This document shows, one piece after another, positions 9,268 through 44,575 of a stretch of DNA of 64,000 nucleotides (positions within the stretch are counted from its first letter, which is position 1; each line of letters starts with the position of its first letter). The notes beneath the pieces were generated by a model. That model ran no database searches and had not been told where the DNA came from. It saw nothing but the letters and a program-made list of their open reading frames with translations. Source of the stretch: an uncultured Candidatus Actinomarina sp. Lineage in GTDB: Bacteria; Actinomycetota; Acidimicrobiia; Actinomarinales; Actinomarinaceae. Position numbers and translations under genes: made by a program. The stretch covers positions 211,569 through 275,568 of the forward strand of contig CACHBU010000001.1 in the NCBI GenBank assembly GCA_902578135.1, written 5' to 3'.

Positions 9268-9353
9268 ATTTTCCTTTCTTACCTTGAGAAAATAAAGAAA
9301 CTTCAAGAATTTATAGAAACTTCATTCCTTCTCTCGAGGACTGTTGTCTTAAC

Positions 9354-9434
9354 AATAATGAAGGCGACCTGACTTATCTTTCGAATTACAGTTGCGGGAC
9401 AGTGTTAGATTTTCACTAACTTCGCTCCATTATT
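9354..9434 (-). promoter_or_regulatory. Cobalamin (B12) riboswitch aptamer, compact form; the expression platform continues to about 9268
   Basis: The minus-strand read is AATAATGGAGCGAAGTTAGTGAAAATCTAACACTGTCCCGCAACTGTAATTCGAAAGATAAGTCAGGTCGCCTTCATTATT. It contains the conserved GTGAAAATC...CCCGCAACTGTAA core and a B12-box-like AAGTCAGGTCGCC. It is closed by P1 AATAATG/CATTATT. Confidence 0.85.
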
Positions 9435-9453
9435 CTTGATAAATAGTAGCAGA

Positions 9454-12563: not shown

Positions 12564-14488
12564 TATACGTCGAGAAACCTCACGTCTTTAGCGTTCTTTT
12601 CAATAAAAAGTTTTCTTTTTGAAACATCATTTCCCATTAAAATTTCAAACATGTCAGAAGCTTTTGCCATCGCACCTTTAGCGTCTGCAAGCGTAACTTT
12701 AATTAGGGTTCTAGTCTCAGGATTCATTGCGGTGTCCCACAGCTCCCCAGCGTTCATTTCTCCCAACCCTTTGAATCTGCTTATATCAAACTTTTTGTTT
12801 TTGTTTTCTTTTTTAAATTTATTTAGTGCTTCGTCGTCTTTTAGGTATGTTATTCCTGATGATGCTTTTACTCGATATAACGGTGGTTCTGATATCCAGA
12901 CTTTTCCGCTTGTTATCAAACCTGGCATAAATTTAAAAAAGAACGTAAGAAGCAGTGTTCTAATATGTGCACCGTCAACATCAGCATCTGTTAAAAATAT
13001 TATTTTGTCATATCTTGACTCTTCTTCGTTGAACTGAAGCTTTATACCGGTACCAATAGCTTTAATAAGTGCGCTTATTTCTTCATTTTGAAGTGCTCTG
13101 TTTTCTGTAACTTTTTGAACGTTTATAATCTTTCCCCTGATTGGCAGAATTGCTTGAACTCTTGAGTCTCGTGCTTGTTTAGCAGGACCAGCTGCTGAGT
13201 CTCCTTCTACAATAAACAACTCACTTTCTGTTGGGTCTGTTGAAGAACAGTCTGCAAGTTTTCCTGGAAGACCTGAGGTCTCTAAAATGCTTTTACGCTT
13301 GGTGAGCTCTCTAGCTTTTTTTGCACTCATTCTTGCTTTTGCAGCAACTGCGCATCTTTCTACTATTGCTCTACCCTCTTTGGTGTTTTTGGTTAACCAT
13401 TTTGGAAATTCTTCATTAATTAGGACTTGAACCCTTGATTTCATTTCAGTATTTCCTAATTTTGTTTTTGTCTGTCCCTCGAATTGTGGTTCTTTTACTC
13501 TTACAGATACCACGCCTGTAAGCCCTTCTCTTATGTCGTCTCCCGTTAAAGATATGTCCGAATGAAGATTTCTTTTTTTTGCAAAGTCATTAATTGCTTT
13601 GGTAACAGCTGTTCTTAGCCCTTCTTCATGAGTGCCACCTTCTAGGGTGTGTATGTTGTTAGCAAAGCTTTTTATTGTTACGTCGTCTTCGTTTTTCCAT
13701 TGGAGTGCAACCTCAATTTCTGAATCTTTTGTTTGGTCTGAAAAAGAAATTATTTTTTGATGTAGTGGATCAAAACCGTCATTTAAATACTCAACAAAAT
13801 CTGTGAGGCCACCTTTATAGTGATATTCTTCTTTTGTAGGTGGCTTAACCCTGTTATCAACAAGTGTTATTTTCAAACCTTTGTTAAGAAATGCGGTTTG
13901 TCTAAGTCTTTCATCAACTATGTTGTAATCATATGTTTGAGTCTCATCAAATATTTCTGAATCTGCTAAAAAGTTAACTTTTGTACCTGTTTTTTTTGAA
14001 ATTTTTCCTTTTTTGATTTTGGATTTTGGTTTTCCCAAGTCAAAGTCTTGATTCCAAAAATGACCGTCTCTTTGAACCTCTACTTTAACGTATTTTGATA
14101 AAGCGTTAACAACAGATATTCCAACTCCATGCAATCCACCACTAACGGTATAGGCTCCCGATTCAAACTTTCCACCAGCATGAAGTGTTGTTAATACTGT
14201 TGTGAGTGCAGATATTTTTGTTTTGGGGTGCGGTTTTACTGGTATTCCGCTTCCGTCGTCTTCAACAGTAACTGAGCCATTTTTTTCTAGACTAACTTTT
14301 ATCTTAGAACATCTTCCAGCCATAGCTTCATCAACAGAGTTGTCTAAAACTTCCCAAATTAGGTGGTGTAATCCATTTGGACCTGTAGATCCAATATACA
14401 TTGCAGGGCGCTTTCTAACTGCTTCTAGACCCTCAAGAATTTTTATATCTTTTGAATCGTAACTATTATTTGAATCTTTTTTAGACAC
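12563..14488 (-). CDS. gyrB: DNA gyrase subunit B
   Basis: EGLEAVRKRPAMYIG, LHHLIWEVLDNSVDEA, EGDSAAGPAKQARD and PIRGKIINV. GTG start with GGAG RBS. Confidence 0.97.
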   Translation of the reverse strand: MSKKDSNNSYDSKDIKILEGLEAVRKRPAMYIGSTGPNGLHHLIWEVLDNSVDEAMAGRCSKIKVSLEKNGSVTVEDDGSGIPVKPHPKTKISALTTVLTTLHAGGKFESGAYTVSGGLHGVGISVVNALSKYVKVEVQRDGHFWNQDFDLGKPKSKIKKGKISKKTGTKVNFLADSEIFDETQTYDYNIVDERLRQTAFLNKGLKITLVDNRVKPPTKEEYHYKGGLTDFVEYLNDGFDPLHQKIISFSDQTKDSEIEVALQWKNEDDVTIKSFANNIHTLEGGTHEEGLRTAVTKAINDFAKKRNLHSDISLTGDDIREGLTGVVSVRVKEPQFEGQTKTKLGNTEMKSRVQVLINEEFPKWLTKNTKEGRAIVERCAVAAKARMSAKKARELTKRKSILETSGLPGKLADCSSTDPTESELFIVEGDSAAGPAKQARDSRVQAILPIRGKIINVQKVTENRALQNEEISALIKAIGTGIKLQFNEEESRYDKIIFLTDADVDGAHIRTLLLTFFFKFMPGLITSGKVWISEPPLYRVKASSGITYLKDDEALNKFKKENKNKKFDISRFKGLGEMNAGELWDTAMNPETRTLIKVTLADAKGAMAKASDMFEILMGNDVSKRKLFIEKNAKDVRFLDV

Positions 14489-14565
14489 GAACTATCTCCA
14501 AGATACGCTTCTTTTTGCTTATATTACAGCCCCTTGCTGAACTCTTATTTTACTAGATTTGCTGA

Positions 14566-14847
14566 TTATTGCTGGTTATTATCTACTTGAATATTCAGTT
14601 TTTTTAACTTTATTTTTGTATTTTTTTCTATATCAATTAATAGCTTTTCTTGTTGTAGTTCTATTAGATTTTTCAATCTTTTTGAGTCAACATAGAGGAT
14701 TAACTCATCCCCAACAACTGGTCCCGGTATTATTTCGCTGTAAAGGTTGGTTTTCTGGTTTTTAAAGTGTTTTCTAATCTTTTCGGATTTTGAAAAGTCA
14801 ATACCTGAATCGTTTGGATTGATTTTTTGGGGTTCTTTGTTGAACAT
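14566..14847 (-). CDS. Small DUF721/DciA-like protein (occupies the position of actinobacterial Rv0004)
   Basis: 93 aa. GDELILYVDSKRLKNLIELQQEKLLIDIEKNTKIKLKKLNIQV resembles the DUF721 core (L-x-V-x-V-x-S, then an ir-f-v type ending). Synteny between dnaN and gyrB supports it. The sequence similarity is weak. Confidence 0.4.
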   Translation of the reverse strand: MFNKEPQKINPNDSGIDFSKSEKIRKHFKNQKTNLYSEIIPGPVVGDELILYVDSKRLKNLIELQQEKLLIDIEKNTKIKLKKLNIQVDNNQQ

Positions 14848-15969
14848 TTATTGATTAGTTCTAACAGGCATTAATAAATACTTATAGTGTTCTTCTTCTC
14901 CTTGAATGACAGCTGGTTTGTCATTTCCAGAAAACCTCAGATAAGCTTTGTTTCCTTCCAAAACTTCAATGCCTTGAATTAGATAGTTTGGGTTAAACGA
15001 TGTTTCAAAACCAGAAACGTCCCCTACTTCAAGTCCTAATATTTTTATGTCTACCACTTCGTTGCCTCCACCAATATCTTTATTAGTAGACGAGATGTTA
15101 AGGGTTTTGTCATCCACTACCTTAAGGGTTACAGGTATAAAACCCTCTGCAACAACAGTTGATCTGTCTAGTGATTCCAATATAGATTTTTTATCAACTT
15201 CTATTGAAAAAAGATTTTCTTTAGGAAACAACATTTTATACTCTGGAAACGTTCCTTCTAGTTTTCTCACTGATGTGTAATATCTTTTGTTGTAAAAGTG
15301 AAGTTCTCTTTCTGTTGAGTTTATGTTTATTTCTTCTTCGCTGTCTTCAAATATTTTTATTGTTTCGTTTAAAGACCTAAATGAAACAATTCCTGCGTCG
15401 GAAATGGGAAGGTCAAAAACGGTATTGATTGCAAGCCTGTAGCTGTCGGTTGAAACGAGGTTTGTTTCGTTGTTTTCGTTATCAAAGAAGACTCCTGTGA
15501 GTATTGGTTTTCCTCCCTCTGGAGAGGCTGCTACACCTACTTTTTTTAGTGCATCAAAAAGGTTTGTTGTTTTAAGTTGTTTACCTTCAGAGATGTTGTG
15601 TTGTTCTTCTAGTAGTGTTTTGGGATAAGTTAAGTGATCTAGTTTTCTAAGCCTGTATTCTGTTTTTTTTGTTTCTACTTTGATCTCGTTCCCTATGTCT
15701 GAAAAGATAACTTCTCCTGAAGGTAGTTTCCTTACCACTTCTGAAAAAATTCTTGCATTAACGAGGCATTCTCCGTCGACAATAGACTCTACTTCAAAAC
15801 TGGCTTTTATAACTAGGTCCAGATCAGACCCTGTTAACTCACAAAGGTTTTCTTTATTTTTTATATAAAGACCTTGGAGTGCTGGGGTGGAGGGTTTAAT
15901 ATCAACAGCTTTTGACACTGTTAAAACATATTCTTTTATACTCTTGGTTGTTGTTTTAAATTTCAACAA
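14848..15969 (-). CDS. dnaN: DNA polymerase III beta sliding clamp
   Basis: 373 aa with three-domain clamp length and a C-terminal YLLMPVR motif. It lies directly downstream of dnaA. TTG start according to the ORF track. Confidence 0.92.
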   Translation of the reverse strand: MLKFKTTTKSIKEYVLTVSKAVDIKPSTPALQGLYIKNKENLCELTGSDLDLVIKASFEVESIVDGECLVNARIFSEVVRKLPSGEVIFSDIGNEIKVETKKTEYRLRKLDHLTYPKTLLEEQHNISEGKQLKTTNLFDALKKVGVAASPEGGKPILTGVFFDNENNETNLVSTDSYRLAINTVFDLPISDAGIVSFRSLNETIKIFEDSEEEININSTERELHFYNKRYYTSVRKLEGTFPEYKMLFPKENLFSIEVDKKSILESLDRSTVVAEGFIPVTLKVVDDKTLNISSTNKDIGGGNEVVDIKILGLEVGDVSGFETSFNPNYLIQGIEVLEGNKAYLRFSGNDKPAVIQGEEEHYKYLLMPVRTNQ

Positions 15970-16079
15970 ACACCTCTTGTTCTTCTATACATATAACAAT
16001 AATAAAGCTGTTTAAAGTGTTTAAAAAAACAGAAAACACCTTAAAAGGCTTTAAAAACACATTAGTAGTTTTCAACATT

Positions 16080-17420
16080 CTAAACACCAACAAACTTTGT
16101 TAAGTTATTGTCTATTTTGTTGTTGAAAATGTTAACTTCTTTTTTAAACAAACTTGAACCTTCGACTTTCTTTATAGAAGAGAGAACCGTTGAGTGAGAT
16201 CTGTTCCCTACGTATAAACCAATTTGGTTTAAGGAGTACTCAGTATGTTTCCTCATCAAATAAATAAACAGGTGCCTAGCGTTGCTTACAAGTTCACTTC
16301 TGTTTTTTGAAAGAACAAGCCTTTCGTCAACCTGATAAACCTCTGAACAGTATTTTAGAATAAACTCCGGAGTCAACTCCATTATCTTGTTGTTGCTATA
16401 CATTGAAACGAGCTCGGATATGTATTTGTTGTTACTTACACCAGTTTGTTTGTTAATAATTAGATTGTTAACAACACCATTTATTTCTCTAAAGCTTTGA
16501 AAGTCCAATGAAAGTAACATTTCTAAATCATTTTTAGAAAACAACAAACCTTCAAATTCAATATTGTTCTTTTTTAAGACTTCAGAAAAAATTTCCCTAT
16601 CAGGTTTTTCTATATCTGTTACTAGTCCGTTTAAAATTCTAGAAACCAAACGATCCGGAAAACCATTAAGTTCTTGGGGTTTCTGGTCGGATGCTAAAAC
16701 CACAGACTTTGAATTGTTTAAAAAATAGTTAATTGTATGAAAAAGCTCTTCAGAAACACCTTTTTTGCCTACAAAAAACTGAATATCATCTACTAATAAA
16801 ATGTCTACAGACCTAATTCTCTTTTTAAAGTTGTCAATATCATTATTTTTTATACCGGAAATATATGACTCAAGAAAAGATTCCGAGTCAATATAGAAAG
16901 AGGAATTACTTGACGACTCAATAGTTTTCAAAAGATGGGTTTTTCCAACACCCGGTTTACCATAAACAAAAAGTGGATTAAACCGTTTACCGGGTGCTAT
17001 AACGACATTTTTAGCTGCTGTTATTGCCAGATTATTACAACCACCAACAAAAAGCTCATCAAAAAAGGACAAATCATAATAAGTCTCAGCAACAATATCA
17101 TCTTGTTTTTTCTCAACTACGGTTGTTTCAACGCTTGACCTTTCATATACACTTGTTTTTTGAAAGTTTTTATCAACAACAAAAACACAATTAGCTTTGC
17201 TGTTATATTTAAGTTGATATACTGACTTAATTTTTGAATAGACCTTTTTCTCAATAGCTGATTTTATAAAATCAGATGAAACAACAATACAAAGGTCGTT
17301 CTCATCATTTATTTCAAAGCCAACCTGATCTAACCAATATCTATCTGTCTTGTTGGTCAAAGACTTTTCTAATAAAGCTTTAAACTCTTCAAGCAATACA
17401 GTATTTTCCCTACTCCCCAT
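16080..17420 (-). CDS. dnaA: Chromosomal replication initiator DnaA
   Basis: Walker A GKPGVGKTHLL, Walker B ILLVDDIQF, and the C-terminal DNA-binding signature RSHSTVLSSIKKV. Confidence 0.96.
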   Translation of the reverse strand: MGSRENTVLLEEFKALLEKSLTNKTDRYWLDQVGFEINDENDLCIVVSSDFIKSAIEKKVYSKIKSVYQLKYNSKANCVFVVDKNFQKTSVYERSSVETTVVEKKQDDIVAETYYDLSFFDELFVGGCNNLAITAAKNVVIAPGKRFNPLFVYGKPGVGKTHLLKTIESSSNSSFYIDSESFLESYISGIKNNDIDNFKKRIRSVDILLVDDIQFFVGKKGVSEELFHTINYFLNNSKSVVLASDQKPQELNGFPDRLVSRILNGLVTDIEKPDREIFSEVLKKNNIEFEGLLFSKNDLEMLLSLDFQSFREINGVVNNLIINKQTGVSNNKYISELVSMYSNNKIMELTPEFILKYCSEVYQVDERLVLSKNRSELVSNARHLFIYLMRKHTEYSLNQIGLYVGNRSHSTVLSSIKKVEGSSLFKKEVNIFNNKIDNNLTKFVGV

Positions 17421-17696
17421 AACCAGATATAAACTTAATTACCTAAACAAGATTTTCATAGAGTGTGAAAAACAGATTAAAATTTCACAAAGTGTTTAAA
17501 ACTTTGAAAAACCTCAATAAACATTGAGTAAAACCCTAAACAATTAATAAACATTAATTATTAATAAAGTTGTTTGTTAAAGCTAGTTAATTTGTTTTTC
17601 GCGAGCTAAAAATCTTTTTCGCGAACTAGTTAAAAATAAAATTTATTTTGTTTTGTTTAATTAATTTCTTCATTTATTCTTACAAACAGGTATTAA
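17421..17696. other. Candidate oriC / divergent dnaA-rpmH control region
   Basis: Gene orientation switches here. The spacer is very AT-rich. There is one perfect DnaA box (TGTGAAAAA at 17464-17472, the complement of TTTTTCACA) and a facing AATTTCACA at 17481-17489. GTGTTTAAAA at 17492-17501 also occurs in the dnaA-dnaN spacer at 16017-16026. Two TTTTTCGCGA repeats lie 20 bp apart. Confidence 0.45.
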
Positions 17697-17831
17697 ATGA
17701 AAAGAACATATCAACCTAGTAATAGAAAAAGAAGCAGAAAACACGGTTTTAGATCAAGAATGCGTACAAGAGCAGGACGCGAAATTCTTAAAAGAAGAAG
17801 AAAAAAGGGTCGTAAAATTCTGTCTGCCTAG
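17697..17831 (+). CDS. rpmH: 50S ribosomal protein L34
   Basis: Below the ORF-track size cut-off. My translation is [44 protein letters not shown]. Confidence 0.96.
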
Positions 17832-17834
17832 GTA

Positions 17835-18152
17835 GTGAGTGTGAAGTTCACTTCGCTGAATAAAAAAAATCATTTTGATAACCTGAAAAAAGAAGAACTT
17901 TGTATAGCCTCAAAAGGCCTAAAGGTTTTTGTTAAAGAAAACGGTACAACCTCTTCAAGACTTGGAATAAGTATTTCAAGCAAGCATGCAAATGCAGTTA
18001 ACAGAAATAAGTTTAAAAGAAGGATAAGGGAAGCAGTAAGGAGCCTATCAGAGAATAAAAATCTGGACATTTTAGTTGTTGGAAATAAAGATTCGTCAAA
18101 CCTAACATCATCTGAAATTTTGAAGATTTTTAAGTCTCACCCCTTACTCTAA
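17835..18152 (+). CDS. rnpA: Ribonuclease P protein component
   Basis: RLGISISSKHANAVNRNKFKRRIREA motif. GTG start 3 nt after rpmH. Confidence 0.85.
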   Translation: MSVKFTSLNKKNHFDNLKKEELCIASKGLKVFVKENGTTSSRLGISISSKHANAVNRNKFKRRIREAVRSLSENKNLDILVVGNKDSSNLTSSEILKIFKSHPLL

Positions 18153-18158
18153 AAAAGA

Positions 18159-18374
18159 ATGAAAATATTAGAGTTTTTTATTCAAGGATCAAGGTCTCTA
18201 CTCGCATTATTTGGTTTAGGTGGGGGCAACTGCATGTACTACCCATCATGTACAAGTGTTATCGTTGATAGTTTTGAAAAAAATGGGTTGATTAGGACTG
18301 TTTCAGTTATTTTCAGAAGAATATTCATTTGCAACCCAATATATAAGAAAATTGGTAAAAATTGGCAATATTAG
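18159..18374 (+). CDS. yidD: Membrane protein insertion efficiency factor YidD
   Basis: 71 aa. YYPSCTSVIVDSFEKNGLIRTVSVIFRRIFICNP fits the YidD Cys pattern. It lies between rnpA and yidC. Confidence 0.7.
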   Translation: MKILEFFIQGSRSLLALFGLGGGNCMYYPSCTSVIVDSFEKNGLIRTVSVIFRRIFICNPIYKKIGKNWQY

Positions 18375-19174
18375 AACCATTTGCGCTTGCTATAGGGTAT
18401 TTACTCTCTTATGTTTATGACTACACAGCATCATATGGATATTCAATTGTCATTTTGACAATAATAATTAACGTAATAATTTTCCCACTTACACTGAGAC
18501 AAACTAGATCAACAAAGAGAATGCAAGATGCTCAGTCAGACATAAAACGACTTCAAAAACAATACAAAGACAACAAAGAAGAACTCAACAAAGCAATGGC
18601 TGCAATGTATAAAGAAAAAGGCATTAATCCCCTTGGTTGCATACTTCCACTTTTAGTTCAAATGCCTATATGGTTTGCTCTTTTTAGAGTTCTAAGAGAG
18701 CCTTTGGCTTTTATACCAAGCTCATCTAACCTTTCAAACAGCCTAGCTGTCAGTACGAGCCTTAAATTTTTCAATATGGATCTCCAAATTCCACCCTCAG
18801 AAGTTGTTGAGTGGATTGAAAGAGTTCCTTATTTAGTGCTGATTTTATTGGTTATTCTTACTGCTTTATATCAGCAGAATCAGATAACTAAGAAGACTGG
18901 AAAAAGCGACAATCCTCAAGCACAACAAATGCAAATGGTAGGAAAAGTCATGCCTTTATTTTTCGGATTTATTTCTTGGACTTTACCAACAGGTTTAGTT
19001 GTCTACTTTCTAACAGGAAATATATTTCGTATTGGGCAACAAGCATTGATTGTAAAGCTTGATGATAAAGAAACTAATAAAAAAGAAGAAAACAAAAAAG
19101 AAAACGAGGAACAACAACAAAACCCTGTTCAAGAAAATTCTCGTAAAAACCGCAAAAAAAGAAGGAGAAAGTAA
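18362..19174 (+). CDS. yidC: Membrane protein insertase YidC/Oxa1 family
   Basis: PLGCILPLLVQMPIWFALFRVL and YFLTGNIFRIGQQ motifs, with a basic C-terminal tail. Confidence 0.88.
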   Translation: MAILEPFALAIGYLLSYVYDYTASYGYSIVILTIIINVIIFPLTLRQTRSTKRMQDAQSDIKRLQKQYKDNKEELNKAMAAMYKEKGINPLGCILPLLVQMPIWFALFRVLREPLAFIPSSSNLSNSLAVSTSLKFFNMDLQIPPSEVVEWIERVPYLVLILLVILTALYQQNQITKKTGKSDNPQAQQMQMVGKVMPLFFGFISWTLPTGLVVYFLTGNIFRIGQQALIVKLDDKETNKKEENKKENEEQQQNPVQENSRKNRKKRRRK

Positions 19175-19917
19175 TGGCTAACAACAAGTGGGTAGAGGTT
19201 GAAGCAAAATCTATAGATGACGCAATTAAAGCAGGATTAAACGAACTAAACCTTGAAGATGCAACGCAAGCAAATATAAATATTTTAAGAGAACCAGAAG
19301 GCGGTGTTTTTGGCGTGGGTGGAACTAAAGCACTTGTTCGGATTTCTGTAAGGAACGGAGGTTCTAGAAACTATAACAACAAAAATAAAAGAAATAACGG
19401 TAATAAAAACGGGTACAAAAAACAATATTCTCCTAAAAAGCCGCGTATAGAGGCCGATAAAGATGAACAGTTGAAGGTTTCTATTAACTTTTTAGAAGGT
19501 TTGGTAAAGTCTTTTGGACTTGATGGAAAAGTAGAAGGCACACTAGAAGACGAAAATCTAATTGTGAATGTAATAGGAGAACAAACAGAGGCATTAGTTG
19601 GAGAAAAAGGTTTTATTATAAGATCTATACACGAGCTGACAAGAACTGTAGTACAAAGAAAAACAGGCGCCGGAACAAGACTTAGGCTTGATGTCGCTGA
19701 TTATGCAACAAAACGCAAAGAAGCGCTGACAATATATGCAGAAAGATTGAGTAAACAAATTCTTGAAGACAAACAAGAAGTTATGTTAGAGCCAATGAAC
19801 TCTGTTGATAGAAAAACACTCCACGACGCCGCGGCAACGTTTGACGGAATTAGGTCTTATTCTGAAGGTAGAGAGCCGTATAGATCTGTTGTTTTTGCTC
19901 CTGAAGAGGAAGAATGA
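19174..19917 (+). CDS. jag: Jag/KhpB-type RNA-binding protein (Jag_N, KH, R3H)
   Basis: R3H region EPMNSVDRKTLHDAAATFDGIRSYSEGREPYRSVV. Conserved position after yidC. Confidence 0.82.
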   Translation: MANNKWVEVEAKSIDDAIKAGLNELNLEDATQANINILREPEGGVFGVGGTKALVRISVRNGGSRNYNNKNKRNNGNKNGYKKQYSPKKPRIEADKDEQLKVSINFLEGLVKSFGLDGKVEGTLEDENLIVNVIGEQTEALVGEKGFIIRSIHELTRTVVQRKTGAGTRLRLDVADYATKRKEALTIYAERLSKQILEDKQEVMLEPMNSVDRKTLHDAAATFDGIRSYSEGREPYRSVVFAPEEEE

Positions 19918-20510
19918 CCTTCGAGCCCCAAATTCCAGATTGGGGTAATGAGTACAAAAACTATCTTGAAAGGCTCAAAAGCTATCATGACTGGTTGTGC
20001 AAAACAGGCATAAACAATGGATTAATAAGTGAAAAGCCCTTGCAGTACATATGGGACGAATTCATAGTCCACTCGTTGTATTTTGGAAAAATACTGCAAA
20101 ATATTAAAAATAATGATAAAAATATATATGACCTAGGCACAGGCGGTGGAATTCCTGGAATTCCTATTGCTTTAACTAACCCAAACAAATTATTCACGCT
20201 TGTCGACATAAGCGAAAGTAGAGCTTTTGAACTTCAAAGGCTAAAAAATATATTAAATTTAGAAAATGTTGAAGTTCTTAATGAGAGTGCTGATGCAGTT
20301 TTAACAGATAACAACACGTACATTTCTCGCTGCTTTATCTCATCAAAAGACGTTTTGAAAAACATAAAACAATTAAAAAACGTAACATACATAGTCTCTT
20401 CAAACGGAGAAAATTTAAACGAAAATAAAGAAAAGTTTCACGTGAAACAAGAAAAATTCACCATTAATTCAACAAACATAAGACACATTGATGTTATAAA
20501 TGTTAAGTGA
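19914..20510 (+). CDS. rsmG: 16S rRNA (guanine527-N7)-methyltransferase
   Basis: SAM-binding motif DLGTGGGIPGIPIAL. Position between jag and parA. Confidence 0.85.
   Translation: MTFEPQIPDWGNEYKNYLERLKSYHDWLCKTGINNGLISEKPLQYIWDEFIVHSLYFGKILQNIKNNDKNIYDLGTGGGIPGIPIALTNPNKLFTLVDISESRAFELQRLKNILNLENVEVLNESADAVLTDNNTYISRCFISSKDVLKNIKQLKNVTYIVSSNGENLNENKEKFHVKQEKFTINSTNIRHIDVINVK
20434..20449. other. parS centromere-like site
   Basis: AGTTTCACGTGAAACA has one mismatch to the TGTTNCACGTGAAACA consensus. It is palindromic, sits inside the 3' end of rsmG and is 58 nt upstream of parA. Confidence 0.8.
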
Positions 20511-40335: not shown

Positions 40336-40803
40336 ATGTACTCGATTTGGCTTACAAGTTCAGAGCATGACCGTGAGATTTACAACTTAATTCAAAGATT
40401 TGCAGATGAAGAGGGTCAAGATGCTTTTATTCCCCACGTAACACTAGTCACACAAATCTCTACCCAAGAAAAAGCAGCTGAAATTCTAAATCAAATTTTT
40501 AAGAACAAATGCAGTGTTCTCTTTGATCAGATTTCCGTTGGTAATACCTATTTCCAGAAACTTTTCCTAGAGTCTTCTGATAACTCATATTTTTTTAAAG
40601 CTATCTCAAATATTCAAGGTTGGCCAAGTTTATGGGTACCTCATTTATCGCTGTACTATGGGGATGAGTTACCCAAATCTTTTGACCTGGGGGAGCTCAA
40701 TAAACTCATCCCTGTAGCACTCACTTTTGACACTATTGCTGTTTACAAAACAGGACCTAAAGTGTCAGAATGGAAGGAGATAACCACTCTTTATTTGGAT
40801 TGA
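40336..40803 (+). CDS. 2H phosphoesterase superfamily protein (cyclic phosphodiesterase/LigT-like)
   Basis: Two H-x-[TS]-x motifs at the expected spacing: IPHVTLV and VPHLSLYY. Confidence 0.65.
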   Translation: MYSIWLTSSEHDREIYNLIQRFADEEGQDAFIPHVTLVTQISTQEKAAEILNQIFKNKCSVLFDQISVGNTYFQKLFLESSDNSYFFKAISNIQGWPSLWVPHLSLYYGDELPKSFDLGELNKLIPVALTFDTIAVYKTGPKVSEWKEITTLYLD

Positions 40804-40832: not shown

Positions 40833-43067
40833 CTAAACAATTGCAAAACTTTCATTTGAAAAATCTATTGATAAGCTTTGCGATGTAGATATCATTGAAA
40901 AATTACTTTCACCAACACCAAGAATTGCTGGAATATTGTGCTCAGCACACCTTATCGCCATGTGAGAGTTTGGTCCCCCATATTGGGTAATCAAAGATTT
41001 GATTTTGTAATTAAAAATCCAATCCCATCCGGGATCTGCTGCTGGAATAACTACAATTTTATTATCGAGGTCATAAGGCTGATTTGAATAATTATCCAGA
41101 AGTAAAACTTTCCCAGAAACTGTTCCCTGTCCAATGTAATTTCCGTCTTTGCTCATTTCCTCATATAAATAAAAATCATCAGATGACGAGATTAAGTCAG
41201 GCATTAATGTATTTTTAAGATCTAAATTAATCGTATTCTCTTGGTTAAATTCAATATTTAGTCGTTGAAAAAGCTCTTCGTCGCTTATATTTTGCTCATC
41301 TATTTCATTTAAAATACCGTCAATTCCTTTTGTGTAGTAAAATTTTGAATTCTCTCTTGTTGCTATAGCGGTTTGAAACATTTCAACCCATGATGATGCC
41401 GTGTATGGAATATTGTTTAATTCAAAATATTTATCAATATTTGAAAATATAACTTTTTGCAATGAAATATTTTCATCTTGTGGTTCACTATTCTGAATCA
41501 ACAGCTCTGTAAACTCTAAATTATTTTTTAGATTAGATGAAGACAAATTATAGTTACCGGCCCTTATGTGTCCATAAATGTCTAAAAAGCTACTAAGACT
41601 TTTTTTTCCAAGTTTGACCTGATAAGCGTCCGACTTCATTTTCGTACTTATCGACTTTACTGACAACAGTAATGAGTTCTTTTGTGCTTCGGTAATTACA
41701 TCTTTTCTCAAAATATTGTTTACTTGAGCAAAATACACAAATCCCAACCTTGAATGATGTGTAAATGGCAATGCCATATTGTCTCTAATAAATTTTATAT
41801 TTTCTTTTTTAGAGTAATCAAAATTCCCATCAAGCAAAGAGAATGCTTTTAACATAGTTTTATTATTTTTTTCTAGGGTTGATTTGTTTAAGCTATTAAT
41901 TTCAATTAAATCCTGATGCCATTTATGAATCTCTTCTGGGCTAATAATGTCTTTATATTCAATAGCAAATTCATCCTCAGTATCAAACACATATGAAGAT
42001 CGAGAGATATTAAATTCAATTGAGTCATGTAAATGTGGATTCTCTTTCAATTTTTCTAATTGATGCTGTATTATTTTTTCACAGCTATCGACTTGTAAGC
42101 TTCGAGTTAAAAAACTATTTAAACTATGGTTTACATTTATGTAGGCCACATTGTTGAAAAGTTCCATTAATTTAGCCGGTTTATAATTTCTATAACCAAA
42201 TTCACCACGCTGTATATTCCATGTTGAGTCTGTAAACATAAATTTGTATAAGCCAAATGCAACATTGTCGGGTTTTTTACCAATCATTTCGGCTGGATTC
42301 ATGTCTGACATGTTGCTAAATAGCTGATTGACACCAAAACGATCGATCGTAGTTTCTTTTAAAGCTTCATATTTTTTGACATTCTGCTCAATAACTTTCT
42401 TCTCTGCAAATATCAAATCCTTATAAACTTTTTTCTCCATCAGAGGCCGTACTTGTAAAAGCAGAGGAGAAGAATTGCTATCTAGAACCATTTCAATGTC
42501 TAAATGTTTGTTCCCAAATAAATCTTCTAGTTTTGTCAGAATTTTTAGATATATAGAATATTCATCATATTTTTTTGGCAACTTGTTTATCGATCTATGA
42601 ACATAAAAATTTTTAATCTGATTGTATTTTCCAGATGTAACCGCATCAGTTTCTGGCCCATTATAAATTGAAAATGAACGATAAAGAGAGTCTGTTCCAA
42701 CCCTAAAAGATGTAAGCACAGATACGCTCTTTGCGTTTTTTATATAATCTTGCAAAATTACTGTTTGATTGGCATCTTTTTCATAGCTATTTAAAACCTG
42801 ATTCCATGATTCTTTTATATCGTCTATTCTTTCCTTGCTAATTGGTCCGATGGAAAGATATTTACCTGCATTAGATGAGCTTTCTAAGTCTTCATTAGAA
42901 CTATTGCTTCTTATCATTATTTCTTCTGAAAAATCATAAAGAATTTCGTTAATATTTCCTATATCTTCCAAAGAAAGCTCTCTAAAGTATGGAATTTCTA
43001 TATCCGTATGATTTGCTACAAACTCAAGGTTTTTAGCTTTATTACCATAATTTATTTGATCATCCAT
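40833..43067 (-). CDS. PEP-utilising-enzyme family phosphotransferase (ATP-grasp PPDK_N domain, large middle region, swivelling His domain; no PEP/pyruvate TIM barrel)
   Basis: N-terminal YGNKAKNLEFV and IRSNSSNEDLESSSNAGKYLSI (PPDK_N). C-terminal GGPNSHMAIRCAEHNIPAILGV (mobile phospho-His domain). The architecture resembles PEP synthase or rifampicin-phosphotransferase-type enzymes. Confidence 0.75.
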   Translation of the reverse strand: MDDQINYGNKAKNLEFVANHTDIEIPYFRELSLEDIGNINEILYDFSEEIMIRSNSSNEDLESSSNAGKYLSIGPISKERIDDIKESWNQVLNSYEKDANQTVILQDYIKNAKSVSVLTSFRVGTDSLYRSFSIYNGPETDAVTSGKYNQIKNFYVHRSINKLPKKYDEYSIYLKILTKLEDLFGNKHLDIEMVLDSNSSPLLLQVRPLMEKKVYKDLIFAEKKVIEQNVKKYEALKETTIDRFGVNQLFSNMSDMNPAEMIGKKPDNVAFGLYKFMFTDSTWNIQRGEFGYRNYKPAKLMELFNNVAYINVNHSLNSFLTRSLQVDSCEKIIQHQLEKLKENPHLHDSIEFNISRSSYVFDTEDEFAIEYKDIISPEEIHKWHQDLIEINSLNKSTLEKNNKTMLKAFSLLDGNFDYSKKENIKFIRDNMALPFTHHSRLGFVYFAQVNNILRKDVITEAQKNSLLLSVKSISTKMKSDAYQVKLGKKSLSSFLDIYGHIRAGNYNLSSSNLKNNLEFTELLIQNSEPQDENISLQKVIFSNIDKYFELNNIPYTASSWVEMFQTAIATRENSKFYYTKGIDGILNEIDEQNISDEELFQRLNIEFNQENTINLDLKNTLMPDLISSSDDFYLYEEMSKDGNYIGQGTVSGKVLLLDNYSNQPYDLDNKIVVIPAADPGWDWIFNYKIKSLITQYGGPNSHMAIRCAEHNIPAILGVGESNFSMISTSQSLSIDFSNESFAIV

Positions 43068-43074
43068 TTTTCAC

Positions 43075-44430
43075 CTATTTTTTGACTGACTCCAAAGCTA
43101 CTTGAACTTTTTCAGACGGAAATTCGTAATCAACCATCTCCCCACTCAAAAAGTTTTCATAAGCTTTCATATCAAAGTGACCATGTCCACACATTGCTGT
43201 CAAAACAGCAATACTTTCAGAATTTTGGTCGGCATCTTTCACGGCCCTAATTGCTGATGCAATTGCATGAGTTGCTTCTGGAGCAGGAACTATTCCTTCT
43301 GTTTTAGCAAAAAGTTGACCAGCTTCGAAACATTCTTTTTGGCCAATCGCTTCTGCTTCTATTGCTTTGTCTTCGTAAAGTGCACTCACAAGAGGAGCCA
43401 TTCCATGGTATCTTAATCCACCGGCATGAATAGGATCTGGGACAAAACTTGAACCAAGAGTGTGCATTTTGACAACAGGTGCCATACCTACTGAATCCCC
43501 AAAGTCATATGTGTAAACACCTTTAGTTAATGAAGGGCATGCCTCTGGTTCAACCGCACGAATAATAGTTTTTTGCTCTGTTTTCATATTGTTCCTAGCA
43601 AACGGTGAAAATAGCCCAGTAAAGTTTGAACCTCCACCAGTACAACCAACAATTATATCTGGGTAGTCATCAGCCATCTCCATTTGTTTCAGTGCCTCAA
43701 GACCAATTATTGATTGGTGCATTAGAACATGGTTTAGCACGCTTCCCAATGCGTATCTTGTTCCTTCTTCCTTCCTTGCAACCTCAATTGCTTCAGAGAT
43801 TGCTATTCCAAGGCTTCCTGGAGTATTTGGATCTTCTGACAAAAATTGTTTACCGATATCAGTCCTCTCAGACGGGCTTGGATGGACAGTAGCCCCATAT
43901 ATTTCCATCATTGTTTTTCTGTAAGGCTTTGACTCAAAAGATGCGGCTACCTGAAAAACTTCAAGTTCAATTCCAAAGGCTTGGCATGCAAATGACAAAG
44001 CTGAACCCCACTGACCAGCACCCGTTTCTGTAACCATTTTTTTTATTCCTTCTTCCGCGTTGTAATACGCTTGAGGAATTGCAGTATTTGGTTTGTGAGA
44101 ACCTGATGGTGACCCACCTTCGTATTTATAATATATTCTTGACTTTGTTCCTAAAGCTTTTTCAAGCCTTAAAGCCCTATACATTGGTGAAGGCCTGTAT
44201 AGCTTATACAAATCTAAAACGGGTTCAGGAATATCTATATAGCTTTGGTCAGATACTTCCTGCAAAATCAATCCCATTGGGAATAACGGTGCTAAATCCT
44301 CTGGGCCGATTGGATCCATTGTCTGTGGATTCAACTGCGGTGGTAAAGGATTTGGTAAATCAGGCACGATGTTGTACCACTGTTTTGGAATATCATTTTC
44401 ATCTAATAAAAATTTGTACTGTTCTTTCAT
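43075..44430 (-). CDS. trpB: Tryptophan synthase beta-chain-like protein, long TrpB2 type
   Basis: GGSPSGSHKPNTAIPQAYY (PLP lysine), GAGQWGSALS and GCTGGGSNFTGL. The 451 aa length fits TrpB2 rather than TrpB1. No trpA or other trp gene is nearby. Confidence 0.85.
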   Translation of the reverse strand: MKEQYKFLLDENDIPKQWYNIVPDLPNPLPPQLNPQTMDPIGPEDLAPLFPMGLILQEVSDQSYIDIPEPVLDLYKLYRPSPMYRALRLEKALGTKSRIYYKYEGGSPSGSHKPNTAIPQAYYNAEEGIKKMVTETGAGQWGSALSFACQAFGIELEVFQVAASFESKPYRKTMMEIYGATVHPSPSERTDIGKQFLSEDPNTPGSLGIAISEAIEVARKEEGTRYALGSVLNHVLMHQSIIGLEALKQMEMADDYPDIIVGCTGGGSNFTGLFSPFARNNMKTEQKTIIRAVEPEACPSLTKGVYTYDFGDSVGMAPVVKMHTLGSSFVPDPIHAGGLRYHGMAPLVSALYEDKAIEAEAIGQKECFEAGQLFAKTEGIVPAPEATHAIASAIRAVKDADQNSESIAVLTAMCGHGHFDMKAYENFLSGEMVDYEFPSEKVQVALESVKK

Positions 44431-44483: not shown

Positions 44484-44575
44484 AAAAAAACCGGGCTGTG
44501 CCCGGTTTAAGAACTAACTAGTGGGGCACCTACCTATGTAGTTGACCACCAATTCCAGCTAGTTACATTTTTCAT
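44484..44575 (-). promoter_or_regulatory. Trp-codon leader peptide (MKNVTSWNWWSTT, 44575-44534) plus a rho-independent attenuator (stem 44505-44491, U-tract 44490-44484)
   Basis: The minus strand reads ATGAAAAATGTAACTAGCTGGAATTGGTGGTCAACTACATAG...GGTGCCCCAC...AAACCGGGCACAGCCCGGTTTTTTT. There are three TGG codons among four consecutive codons. GTGCCC can pair with GGGCAC, the 5' arm of the terminator, as an antiterminator. Confidence 0.72.

What the first reader, a model, noticed from the sequence alone, without database searches (positions are those of the whole stretch)
40833..44430. trpB2 co-transcribed with a PEP-utilising-family phosphotransferase that lacks a PEP/pyruvate domain
The 451-aa TrpB2-type beta-subunit homologue is followed 7 nt later by a 744-aa protein. 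That protein has a PPDK_N ATP-grasp domain, a roughly 400-aa uncharacterised middle region and a C-terminal swivelling phospho-histidine domain. This is the architecture of small-molecule kinases such as rifampicin phosphotransferase, not of PEP synthase proper. No trpA or other trp genes are in the window. From memory (to be verified), biochemical work on TrpB2 enzymes reported a preference for O-phospho-L-serine over L-serine. An attached ATP-dependent phosphotransferase under the same Trp attenuator could therefore supply a phosphorylated co-substrate. For example, it could convert serine to phosphoserine, or phosphorylate an indole-related compound. This would amount to a two-gene indole-salvage module. 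That functional link is my hypothesis.
Basis: inference. Interest (0 to 1): 0.62.

Follow-up and report, generated by a model that had tools for sequence, protein, structure and literature searches.

The report
Trp-starvation operon: TrpB2 plus remodelled kinase
In the abundant marine bacterium Candidatus Actinomarina, which cannot make tryptophan, a tryptophan-sensing RNA switch controls an indole-to-tryptophan salvage enzyme (TrpB2) and, in some strains, a kinase derived from glutamine kinases; the kinase is an optional add-on, not TrpB2's obligate partner.

Summary
A 451-aa TrpB2 gene (43075-44430, minus strand) lies 7 nt upstream of a 744-aa gene (40833-43067). That protein has an ATP-grasp domain, a helical middle domain and a swivelling phospho-histidine domain, and its fold best matches rifampin phosphotransferase. 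Both genes follow a leader-peptide attenuator (MKNVTSWNWWSTT plus terminator) found in 72 related loci.

The host is Candidatus Actinomarina, reported to lack the whole trp pathway. TrpB2 is therefore most likely a Trp-starvation-induced route from indole to Trp.

The 744-aa protein descends from the L-glutamine kinase family (Cj1418-type, NCBIfam PRK05849).
- In other bacteria, 65 of 75 family loci also carry an amidohydrolase and a cytidylyltransferase. None of 75 has trpB2 nearby.
- The Actinomarina clade has lost both partners. It has also replaced 39 of 138 family-conserved residues, many within or beside conserved motifs of the helical domain. It probably has a new substrate.

The proposed obligate two-gene module is not supported. 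The slot behind the attenuator holds trpB2 alone (27 contigs), both genes (14), the kinase alone (4) or neither (1). Kinase-only lineages are abundant and under purifying selection (dN/dS 0.10-0.19).

The kinase is tied to tryptophan but can be selected on its own. Its substrate is unresolved; serine-to-phosphoserine is possible but disfavoured.

The parts
44534..44575 (-). Leader peptide ORF, MKNVTSWNWWSTT plus stop (3 Trp codons in 13)
   Evidence: Read directly. The same W-N-W-W core occurs in 72 related loci, 28 distinct sequences in two classes. A variant, MYKLNSWNWPDSHM, precedes trpB2 in a more distant relative.
44484..44529 (-). Attenuator RNA. Antiterminator arm GUGCCC (44524-44529) can pair with GGGCAC (44498-44503), which overlaps the terminator hairpin AAACCGGGC-ACA-GCCCGGUUU (44488-44508). 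A T-run follows.
   Evidence: The terminator scan found a 9-bp stem with 6 G-C pairs and a T-run. The fold has z = -3.4. The antiterminator pair covaries: GUGCCC:GGGCAC becomes CUGCCC:GGGCAG in kinase-only lineages. No Rfam family matches.
43075..44430 (-). trpB2: stand-alone TrpB2-type PLP-dependent tryptophan synthase beta homologue (451 aa)
   Evidence: NF009057 701 bits and TIGR01415 609.5 bits, both above cutoff. PALP domain. The closest solved structures are chains deposited as tryptophan synthase beta chain 1 or 2: 6HUL_B, 4QYS, 6HTE. The GSHK PLP-lysine motif is conserved. dN/dS 0.01-0.07.
40833..43067 (-). 744-aa His-phosphotransferase, a remodelled member of the L-glutamine kinase (PRK05849) family. 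Approximate domains: ATP-grasp residues 1-240 (nt 42348-43067); helical substrate domain residues 241-630 (nt 41178-42347); swivelling phospho-His domain residues 631-744 (nt 40836-41177).
   Evidence: NF004508 scores 488.5 bits over the full length, just under the cutoff of 501. The possible ribosome-binding site AGGTGA overlaps the trpB2 stop codon.
40962..40964 (-). Codon of His702, the predicted phospho-carrier histidine in the motif GGPNSHMAIR
   Evidence: Invariant in alignments of 23 and 58 family members. Lies inside the PF00391 match.

Best explanation
This is a tryptophan-starvation operon of Candidatus Actinomarina, a streamlined marine actinobacterium that lacks the trp pathway.

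**Regulation (inferred from sequence and conservation).** A 13-codon leader peptide contains W-N-W-W. When charged tRNA-Trp is scarce, the ribosome stalls there. An antiterminator helix then forms in place of the terminator, and transcription continues into the genes.

**TrpB2 (family assignment shown; reaction inferred from biochemistry of family members).** TrpB2 condenses scavenged indole with O-phospho-L-serine, or less efficiently with L-serine, to make tryptophan.

**The 744-aa protein (architecture shown; chemistry inferred from the family).** It is a three-domain phosphotransferase. Its ATP-grasp domain loads phosphate onto His702 of the swivelling domain. That domain carries the phosphate to a substrate bound in the helical domain. 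The expected products are AMP, phosphate and the phosphorylated substrate.

The protein descends from the L-glutamine kinases that start phosphoramidate (MeOPN-type) glycan decoration. It has lost that pathway's two partner genes. It has also replaced about 40 family-conserved residues, many within or beside conserved motifs of the helical domain. It therefore most likely phosphorylates a different small polar molecule, not glutamine.

**Relation between the two genes.** The kinase is an optional passenger of the attenuator that can be selected on its own. It gives some benefit under low tryptophan that does not require an adjacent trpB2. The substrate cannot be named from sequence. L-serine is the most concrete single candidate, at roughly 0.2.
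For: **Host.** Kinase loci L006-L010 and the TrpB2 copy with 100% amino-acid identity are in Candidatus Actinomarina single-cell genomes and MAGs (SAGs/MAGs). The genus is reported auxotrophic for Trp, with trp genes in 0 of 84 complete genomes.

**Attenuator.**. It precedes trpB2 alone, the kinase alone, or both, and it precedes trpB2 in a more distant relative.

**Kinase family.**
- 2432 relatives; the nearest outside Actinomarina is 41% identical.
- One relative, P0375, is a C26/GATase + NTP-transferase + kinase fusion.
- One homologue is named 'glutamine kinase' by JGI.
- Of 75 non-Actinomarina loci, 70 have a Cj1417-like gene, 67 a Cj1416-like gene and 65 both. None of 6 Actinomarina loci has either. 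The nearest outgroup, P0241, also has both.

**Remodelling.**
- 99 of 138 conserved positions are kept, including His702 and conserved positions of the N-terminal ATP-grasp region.
- 39 are changed, including residues that are 100% invariant in canonical members: W256M, R313N, K349S, P321T, G116S, A439S, Y513L.
- The replacements are the same in all 7 Actinomarina sequences where present, although these sequences are only 67-72% identical overall.

**Fold.** pLDDT 88.5; full-length match to rifampin phosphotransferase.

**Separability.**
- 55 leader-bearing metagenome contigs: 27 trpB2 only, 14 both, 4 kinase only, 1 neither, 9 cut off.
- Four SAGs carry the kinase-only form, and 118 protein clusters lie closest to it.
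- Kinase dN/dS is 0.10-0.19 in kinase-only lineages and 0.11-0.16 in paired ones.

**Expression.** Seawater metatranscriptome contigs cover both genes and cross the junction.
Against: - No biochemical data exist for any protein of this clade.
- I could not obtain model coordinates, so I have not shown that the changed residues line the substrate pocket.
- Kinase-only genomes might carry trpB2 elsewhere. They are incomplete single-cell genomes and I could not search them.
- One lineage (L008) has the same remodelled kinase in another context without the Trp leader. The link to tryptophan is therefore not universal in the subfamily.
- Attenuation itself is inferred. The antiterminator is only 6 bp with one covarying pair.
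- The RNA-seq contigs could contain contaminating DNA.
Confidence: 0.6

Rival explanations
1. The kinase is an ATP-dependent L-serine kinase that makes O-phosphoserine for TrpB2, and the two genes form a dedicated indole-salvage module.
For: - The genes are 7 nt apart behind one Trp attenuator.
- RNA contigs cross the junction.
- TrpB2 enzymes prefer O-phosphoserine (Busch 2014).
- The ancestral enzyme acts on a free amino acid.
- The residues gained at remodelled sites are mostly polar (Asn, Ser, Asp, Tyr), which fits a small polar substrate.
- The preprint's main text says serC is absent. If so, the normal route to phosphoserine would be missing.
Against: - TrpB2 alone is the commonest arrangement: 27 contigs against 14 paired.
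- Kinase-only lineages are abundant and under purifying selection.
- Observed counts of both, trpB2-only, kinase-only and neither are 14, 27, 4 and 1. My hand calculation from the marginals gives about 16, 25, 2 and 3 under independence, so there is no sign of dependence.
- No other taxon pairs the two families: 0 of 75.
- The preprint's supplementary table lists serA and serC in 84 of 84 genomes and serB in 0 of 84. That would supply phosphoserine without a kinase.
- The clade lost the invariant charged residues R313, K349 and D311. If these anchor the amino-acid backbone, any alpha-amino acid is a less obvious substrate.
Confidence: 0.2
2. The kinase is a resistance or detoxification enzyme. 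It phosphorylates and inactivates a tryptophan antimetabolite or an inhibitor of tryptophanyl-tRNA synthetase. The attenuator acts as the sensor, because such a compound lowers charged tRNA-Trp.
For: - The closest solved fold is an antibiotic-inactivating kinase, rifampin phosphotransferase.
- This gives the kinase a complete function without TrpB2, which fits the kinase-only lineages.
- It also explains why the two genes can be gained and lost separately.
- From memory, not checked here: an indolmycin-resistant TrpRS gene of Streptomyces coelicolor is controlled by a Trp leader attenuator, and indolmycin is made by a marine Pseudoalteromonas.
Against: - No candidate compound is known.
- The family's known substrate is a small amino acid.
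- The substitutions are mostly polar, and several replace glycine with bulkier residues. That does not suggest a larger hydrophobic pocket.
- Dedicated resistance genes are unusual in 1.1-Mb streamlined genomes.
- There is no direct evidence.
Confidence: 0.12
3. The protein is still an ordinary L-glutamine kinase for phosphoramidate decoration of surface glycans. Its position behind the Trp attenuator is an accident of genome rearrangement.
For: - Full-length similarity to PRK05849, 488.5 bits.
- 99 of 138 conserved positions are kept, including the conserved positions of the ATP-grasp region and the phospho-His motif.
- The genus has a hypervariable island thought to carry surface-modification genes.
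Against: - The Cj1416-like and Cj1417-like partners found in 65 of 75 other loci are absent from all 6 Actinomarina loci.
- Seven residues that are 100% invariant in canonical members are replaced. The replacements are conserved across the clade.
- When trpB2 was deleted, the leader was kept directly upstream of the kinase with a purine-rich ribosome-binding site. This happened in at least two lineages (L001 type and L100).
Confidence: 0.06
4. The kinase gene is a decaying or neutral hitch-hiker with no current function.
For: - It is absent from most leader loci.
- One single-cell genome carries it with at least three frameshifts.
- One contig has lost both genes.
Against: - dN/dS is 0.07-0.19 across deep divergence.
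- Full-length 744-aa ORFs occur in well over 100 protein clusters.
- The replaced residues are themselves conserved.
- The gene is transcribed in seawater.
Confidence: 0.02

Closest known systems
L-glutamine kinase Cj1418 of Campylobacter jejuni (EC 2.7.3.13), first step of O-methyl phosphoramidate capsule modification; NCBIfam PRK05849/NF004508
   Same: - Full-length homology: 488.5 bits to the family model and about 30% identity to members, one of which JGI names glutamine kinase.
- The same three-domain layout.
- The same GGxNSHMAIR phospho-histidine motif.
- The conserved positions of the N-terminal ATP-grasp region.
   Different: - The score falls just under the curated cutoff.
- There is no Cj1417-like amidohydrolase or Cj1416-like cytidylyltransferase nearby: 0 of 6 loci, against 65 of 75 elsewhere.
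- 39 of 138 conserved positions are replaced. Examples: MxDWNPAE becomes MSDMNPAE; IDVR becomes INVN; HDK becomes HDS; HLRPGTYD becomes HIRAGNYN.
- Expression is controlled by a Trp attenuator.
- I did not have the Cj1418 sequence itself. The link rests on annotation, the fusion protein P0375 and the conserved gene triad.
Rifampin phosphotransferase RPH-Lm (PDB 5HV1, 5FBS)
   Same: Best structural match over the whole length (Foldseek E 1e-19 to 1e-20): ATP-grasp domain, helical substrate domain and swivelling His domain.
   Different: Only 14-15% identity. The RPH family model scores 20.5 bits against a cutoff of 999. TM-score is about 0.4 because the domains are oriented differently. Nothing indicates a rifamycin substrate.
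TrpB2 enzymes (Thermotoga maritima, Sulfolobus solfataricus, Thermococcus kodakarensis, Arabidopsis)
   Same: - Above-cutoff member of the TrpB2 models.
- The closest solved structures are 6HUL_B, 4QYS and 6HTE, deposited as tryptophan synthase beta chain 1 or 2; they score 382-424 bits against 121 bits or less for the other TrpB chains.
- Stand-alone gene with no trpA.
- Literature assigns such enzymes to indole salvage, with high affinity for indole and a preference for O-phosphoserine.
   Different: Here TrpB2 is the only trp gene left in a Trp auxotroph. It has its own Trp leader-peptide attenuator. In some strains it is followed by a kinase.
Ribosome-mediated trp attenuators (E. coli trpL; actinobacterial trp leaders) - from general knowledge
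   Same: A short leader ORF with clustered Trp codons, mutually exclusive antiterminator and terminator helices, and a T-run.
   Different: It controls a salvage gene and a kinase in an organism with no trp biosynthetic operon. No Rfam model matches.
ADP-dependent serine kinase SerK of Thermococcus kodakarensis - from memory; the known free-serine kinase
   Same: It would be a functional analogue only if the serine-kinase hypothesis is right.
   Different: An unrelated protein family as I recall it. No homology was tested here.

Membership tests
TrpB2 (TrpB-like PLP-dependent enzyme, NF009057 / TIGR01415) | Full-length match above the curated cutoffs and below the cutoff for true TrpB | tested here: met
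   NF009057 701 bits (cutoff 366). TIGR01415 609.5 bits (cutoff 518.85). TIGR00263 142 bits (cutoff 392).
TrpB2 (TrpB-like PLP-dependent enzyme, NF009057 / TIGR01415) | PLP-binding lysine in the GSHK motif | tested here: met
   SGSHKPNTA aligns with GSHKINTA of PDB 6HUL_B.
TrpB2 (TrpB-like PLP-dependent enzyme, NF009057 / TIGR01415) | Stand-alone gene, not paired with trpA | tested here: met
   No trpA among the neighbours. trpA is reported in 0 of 84 genomes of the genus.
TrpB2 (TrpB-like PLP-dependent enzyme, NF009057 / TIGR01415) | Indole plus O-phosphoserine gives Trp, with preference over L-serine | not testable with these tools
   Property of characterised members (Busch 2014, cited). 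Needs an enzyme assay.
L-glutamine kinase (Cj1418-type, NF004508/PRK05849) | Full-length match above the curated cutoff | tested here: not met
   488.5 bits against a cutoff of 501, aligned over residues 6-742. It is a homologue that falls just outside the equivalog threshold.
L-glutamine kinase (Cj1418-type, NF004508/PRK05849) | ATP-grasp, helical and swivelling-His domains with a conserved phospho-carrier histidine | tested here: met
   His702 is invariant.
L-glutamine kinase (Cj1418-type, NF004508/PRK05849) | Genomic linkage to a Cj1417-like amidohydrolase and a Cj1416-like cytidylyltransferase | tested here: not met
   0 of 6 Actinomarina loci. Elsewhere: 70 of 75, 67 of 75, and 65 of 75 with both.
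L-glutamine kinase (Cj1418-type, NF004508/PRK05849) | Family-invariant residues of the helical domain are conserved | tested here: not met
   39 of 138 conserved positions are changed, including the 100%-invariant W256, R313, K349, P321, A439 and Y513 of the helical domain (G116 of the ATP-grasp region is also changed).
L-glutamine kinase (Cj1418-type, NF004508/PRK05849) | [quoted passage not shown] | not testable with these tools
   Needs an enzyme assay.
Rifampin phosphotransferase (NF041857) | Sequence membership | tested here: not met
   20.5 bits against a cutoff of 999, C-terminal domain only. The fold similarity is real.
PEP synthase / pyruvate phosphate dikinase | C-terminal PEP/pyruvate-binding TIM-barrel domain | tested here: not met
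   No Pfam hit. The protein ends with the swivelling domain. PEP synthase models score at most 30 bits against cutoffs of about 600-980.
Leader-peptide (ribosome-mediated) trp attenuator | Short ORF with clustered Trp codons, followed by an intrinsic terminator upstream of the regulated gene | tested here: met
   Conserved in 72 loci.
Leader-peptide (ribosome-mediated) trp attenuator | Alternative antiterminator helix that excludes the terminator | tested here: inconclusive
   A 6-bp GUGCCC:GGGCAC pairing overlaps the 5' arm of the terminator. It shows one compensatory change (CUGCCC:GGGCAG) and one intermediate with a mismatch. The helix is short and the support is thin.
Leader-peptide (ribosome-mediated) trp attenuator | Read-through increases when tryptophan is limiting | not testable with these tools
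   The only hint is that contig word depth is 2-4 times higher over the leader than over trpB2 in 3 of 4 metatranscriptomes.

The most novel reading that the evidence does not exclude
The remodelled kinase has a new enzymatic activity devoted to tryptophan acquisition or protection in a Trp auxotroph. Two versions are open. It could be the first free L-serine kinase of the PEP-utilizer/ATP-grasp superfamily, feeding an O-phosphoserine-dependent TrpB2. Or it could be a kinase that inactivates a tryptophan antimetabolite, with the trp attenuator acting as the sensor.
Probability: 0.3. Interest if true: 0.75.

Novelty: new variant of a known kind. Interest (0 to 1): 0.56.

Why it matters
Actinomarina is among the most abundant photoheterotrophs of the surface ocean. 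It is described as universally auxotrophic for tryptophan.

- **Ecology.** A Trp-regulated TrpB2 means many strains can probably meet their tryptophan need from dissolved indole. Published pathway reconstructions missed this capacity: the tabulated reconstruction covered only the canonical trp KOs, with no TrpB2-type orthologue and no mention of trpB or indole. This changes which exometabolites should support the organism's growth and cultivation.
- **Population genetics.** Strains differ in whether they carry TrpB2, the kinase, both or neither behind the same switch. That makes this a clean natural experiment in trading off accessory genes in a 1.1-Mb genome.
- **Enzymology.** A glutamine-kinase descendant that has lost its pathway partners, has remodelled conserved motifs of its helical domain and has gained amino-acid-specific regulation is a well-defined target for discovering a new activity.

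Tried and rejected
- **Rfam.** A scan of the whole window and a permissive scan of the leader found no T-box or known leader family.
- **PDB sequence search with the kinase.** It found only the swivelling domain.
- **Primary papers.** I could not read the glutamine-kinase papers or the TrpB2 paper; they are not held. The mechanistic detail of Cj1418 and the phosphoserine-binding residues of TrpB2 therefore rest on citing papers and memory.
- **Third homology search with a profile.** It mostly returned the same close relatives.
- **Finding trpB2 elsewhere in kinase-only genomes.**
  - Cluster look-up gave no assembly accessions.
  - A DNA-run search with L110 returned only metagenomes.
- **A possible second trpB2 locus (L150).** It turned out to be the orthologous gene of a more distant genus with a different gene order.
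- **L152.** The region upstream of trpB2 is masked.
- **L008.** Its neighbours (hydrolases and a DUF417-like membrane protein) gave no functional clue.
- **Model coordinates.** They were not available, so I could not map the changed residues onto the pocket.
- **PEP synthase or PPDK.** Considered and rejected: there is no PEP/pyruvate domain.

Full report
**1. Observation**

The minus strand carries a 451-aa ORF (43075-44430) and a 744-aa ORF (40833-43067), 7 nt apart.

The first ORF is a TrpB2-type enzyme.
- NF009057 scores 701 bits and TIGR01415 609.5 bits, both above cutoff.
- True TrpB (TIGR00263) scores only 142 bits against a cutoff of 392.
- The PLP-lysine motif GSHK aligns with the closest solved structure, 6HUL_B; 4QYS and 6HTE follow, all three deposited as tryptophan synthase beta chains.

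The second ORF ends in a PEP-utilizers swivelling domain (residues 669-736, E 2.5e-13) and has no PEP/pyruvate domain.
- Its own PPDK_N hit is sub-threshold (18.7 bits). Homologues pass the threshold.
- An AlphaFold2 model built on 58 sequences is confident (pLDDT 88.5, pTM 0.87).
- The best PDB matches are rifampin phosphotransferase over the whole length (E 1e-19 to 1e-20), followed by ATP-grasp enzymes for the N-terminal third.

**2. Organism and setting**

A genome scan placed the locus in Candidatus Actinomarina. SAG AG-410-M23 has a TrpB2 with 100% amino-acid identity and a 94% identical kinase. The window also holds dnaA, dnaN, gyrB, gyrA, yidC, jag and rsmG, so the locus lies about 25 kb from the replication origin.

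Two papers describe the order or genus as auxotrophic for tryptophan. In 84 complete genomes, each of the seven trp-pathway orthologues tabulated (anthranilate synthase I and II, PRA isomerase, IGP synthase, tryptophan synthase alpha and beta among those read) was found in 0 of 84. The passages and tables I searched list no TrpB2-type orthologue and do not mention trpB or indole.

**3. The attenuator**

Upstream of trpB2 lies a leader ORF, MKNVTSWNWWSTT (44534-44575). It is followed by a 9-bp G+C-rich hairpin and a T-run (44488-44508). The region folds better than shuffled sequence (z = -3.4).

GUGCCC (44524-44529) can pair with GGGCAC (44498-44503). That pairing would block the 5' arm of the terminator.

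I collected 72 related loci, giving 28 distinct leader sequences in two classes. The W-N-W-W core (the motif used to collect the loci) and the terminator arms are identical in all of them. The proposed antiterminator pair changes in a compensatory way, to CUGCCC:GGGCAG, in one lineage. A more distant relative has MYKLNSWNWPDSHM plus a terminator in front of its trpB2. The pairing of leader and trpB2 is therefore old. No Rfam family matches.

This is a classical ribosome-mediated trp attenuator by anatomy. Its response to tryptophan is inferred, not shown.

**4. What the kinase is**

An exhaustive search found 2432 relatives. Outside Actinomarina the best is only 41% identical. Several lines place the protein in the L-glutamine kinase family:
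- NCBIfam PRK05849 aligns over the full length at 488.5 bits, just under its cutoff of 501.
- One relative (P0375) is a fusion of a C26/GATase domain, an NTP-transferase domain and the kinase.
- JGI names one homologue 'glutamine kinase'.
- Of 75 loci from other phyla, 70 have a C26/GATase gene, usually immediately downstream of the kinase, 67 have an NTP-transferase gene, and 65 have both.
- The closest outgroup has the same triad plus a glycosyltransferase.

This is the Cj1418-Cj1417-Cj1416 set, which together with Cj1415 makes CDP-phosphoramidate 3'-phosphate from glutamine, ATP and CTP in Campylobacter.

The Actinomarina proteins have neither partner (0 of 6 loci). Of 138 positions conserved in at least 85% of canonical members, they keep 99. 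These include the phospho-carrier His702 and conserved positions of the ATP-grasp region. They change 39, including residues that are invariant in all 75 canonical sequences (W256M, R313N, K349S, P321T, G116S, A439S, Y513L).

Many of the changes fall inside or next to conserved motifs of the helical domain:

| Canonical motif | Actinomarina motif |
|---|---|
| MxDWNPAE | MSDMNPAE |
| IDVR | INVN |
| HDK | HDS |
| HLRPGTYD | HIRAGNYN |

The new residues are the same in all seven Actinomarina sequences where present, although these are only 67-72% identical overall. That pattern indicates a changed specificity kept by selection, not decay.

**5. Do the two genes belong together?**

From the kinase side, trpB2 lies within 8 kb in 0 of 75 loci outside Actinomarina. 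It is immediately upstream in 4 of the 5 Actinomarina species representatives (4 of 6 loci when SAG L001 is counted).

Within the genus, the same syntenic slot lies between an ABC/MacB-type transporter and a CPDase-like/ZnuABC/Fur block. It occurs in four states, all behind the leader.

| State | Content behind the leader | Contigs (of 55) |
|---|---|---|
| A | trpB2 + kinase | 14 |
| B | kinase only | 4 |
| C | trpB2 only | 27 |
| D | neither, with a remnant of the trpB2 3' end | 1 |
| - | cut off, not classifiable | 9 |

My hand calculation from these marginals gives about 16, 2, 25 and 3 for A, B, C and D if the two genes were present independently of each other. The observed counts are close to that.

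State B is not a rare accident.
- Four SAGs carry it.
- 118 protein clusters lie closest to it.
- It fills 80-90% of sampled words in many ocean metagenomes.
- It arose at least twice: in the L001 lineage and in L100, whose kinase is 95% identical to the window's.
- In the L001-type junction that I read, the deletion left the leader and a purine-rich ribosome-binding site directly in front of the kinase.
- Kinase dN/dS is 0.10-0.19 in state B and 0.11-0.16 in state A.

The two genes also have different histories. Between the window and L007, trpB2 has dS 1.18 but the kinase only 0.34. Between the window and L009, TrpB2 is 91.6% identical but the kinase only 71%. The kinase allele has therefore been exchanged between lineages.

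One SAG has the kinase broken by at least three frameshifts. One lineage (L008) has the remodelled kinase elsewhere, without a leader.

**6. Expression**

Seawater metatranscriptomes hold up to 30% of the locus's sampled words. Their contigs cover both genes, and two contigs cross the trpB2-kinase junction (43021-43223 and 42987-43407). Word depth over the leader is 2-4 times that over trpB2 in three of four runs. This is consistent with co-transcription and attenuation. It is weak evidence, because contig depth is crude and contaminating DNA cannot be excluded.

**7. Interpretation**

TrpB2 in a Trp auxotroph, under a Trp attenuator, is best read as inducible salvage of indole to Trp. Characterised TrpB2 enzymes have high affinity for indole and prefer O-phosphoserine.

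The kinase is clearly tied to tryptophan status, but it is not TrpB2's obligate helper.

The phosphoserine-supply idea hinges partly on whether the cell already makes phosphoserine. The preprint contradicts itself on this point.
- The main text says serA and serB are present and serC is absent.
- The supplementary table gives serA in 84 of 84 genomes, serC in 84 of 84 and serB in 0 of 84.

If the table is right, phosphoserine is made endogenously and may even accumulate, so no kinase would be needed. If the text is right, the serine-kinase idea gains weight.

Taking all the evidence together, I put the serine-kinase model at about 0.2. I put a TrpB2-independent, tryptophan-linked role with a new substrate at about 0.6. 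Within that, an antimetabolite-inactivating role is a speculative but coherent option at about 0.12.

**8. Novelty**

All the parts belong to known kinds: TrpB2, a leader-peptide attenuator, and a glutamine-kinase/RPH-type phosphotransferase. Three things are new:
- a subfamily of that kinase with a remodelled helical (presumed substrate-binding) domain and no pathway partners;
- its control by a Trp attenuator;
- the strain-level presence or absence of TrpB2 and the kinase in a lineage described as uniformly Trp-auxotrophic.

I found no paper describing any of this.

**9. Limits**

- There is no biochemistry for any protein of this clade.
- I had no access to model coordinates.
- The Cj1418 sequence itself was not available for direct comparison.
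- Only the best 80 of 592 genome hits were examined.
- Kinase-only genomes could not be searched in full.
- I did not annotate every ORF of the window.

Noticed in passing
window 9314-9450 (-): An AdoCbl (B12) riboswitch (63.3 bits, above gathering score) lies directly upstream of a periplasmic-binding-protein gene (8347-9306, Peripla_BP_2). Downstream are a DUF2090 gene and a phosphofructokinase-family gene. This is probably a B12-regulated uptake component.
   Followed up: partly
window 10062-20510: The replication-origin gene set is here: dnaA (16080-17420, -), dnaN, gyrB and gyrA on one side, and yidC, jag and rsmG on the other. GC skew changes sign near 17-18 kb. The trpB2 locus is therefore about 25 kb from oriC.
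   Followed up: partly
bioRxiv 10.64898/2026.04.03.716425, main text versus supplementary table: The preprint's text says serA and serB are present and serC is absent. Its supplementary table lists K00831 (serC) in 84 of 84 genomes and K01079 (serB) in 0 of 84. The difference decides whether O-phosphoserine is available to TrpB2.
   Followed up: partly
L146 4943-7184 (SAG GCA_902620175.1): The kinase downstream of trpB2 is split into three ORFs by at least three frameshifts, although it is 95-98% identical to the intact L009 protein. It is a likely pseudogene, or else assembly error.
   Followed up: partly
L092 (metagenome contig PYIJ01120734.1), about 130-170 nt after the W-N-W-W codons of the leader: The leader and terminator are intact but both genes are gone. 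Only a short remnant resembling the 3' end of trpB2 remains before the convergent CPDase-like gene.
   Followed up: partly
window versus L007 and L009 (trpB2 and kinase genes): The gene histories disagree. Window against L007: trpB2 dS 1.18 but kinase dS 0.34. Window against L009: TrpB2 91.6% identical but kinase 71%. This suggests recombinational exchange of the kinase allele between Actinomarina lineages.
   Followed up: partly
L008 7516-10229 (SAG AG-913-G17): The same remodelled kinase subfamily (757 aa, GTG start) occurs without any Trp leader. It starts 3 nt after a 145-aa membrane ORF with a weak DUF417 match, among hydrolase genes.
   Followed up: partly
P0375 and the roughly 1000-aa family members (for example L031, L033, L052): One relative fuses Cj1417-like, Cj1416-like and kinase domains in a single 1288-aa protein. 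Many family members of about 1000 aa carry an extra N-terminal region, which in several of them shows weak similarity to a second nucleotidyltransferase domain.
   Followed up: partly
L002-L005 7325-7906 (-): TrpB2-only genomes of one lineage carry an extra YbaK/tRNA_edit-family gene between the ABC transporter and the leader. The gene call overlaps the leader ORF.
   Followed up: no
protein cluster of P0121: A 90%-identity cluster whose representative is a 451-aa TrpB2 also lists members of 744 aa, the length of the kinase. This may be a clustering artefact from the adjacent genes.
   Followed up: no
window 40336-40803 (+): A small CPDase-like / 2H-phosphoesterase gene converges on the kinase, 29 nt away. 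It is conserved in all four locus states, so it belongs to the flanking ZnuABC/Fur block and not to the operon.
   Followed up: partly
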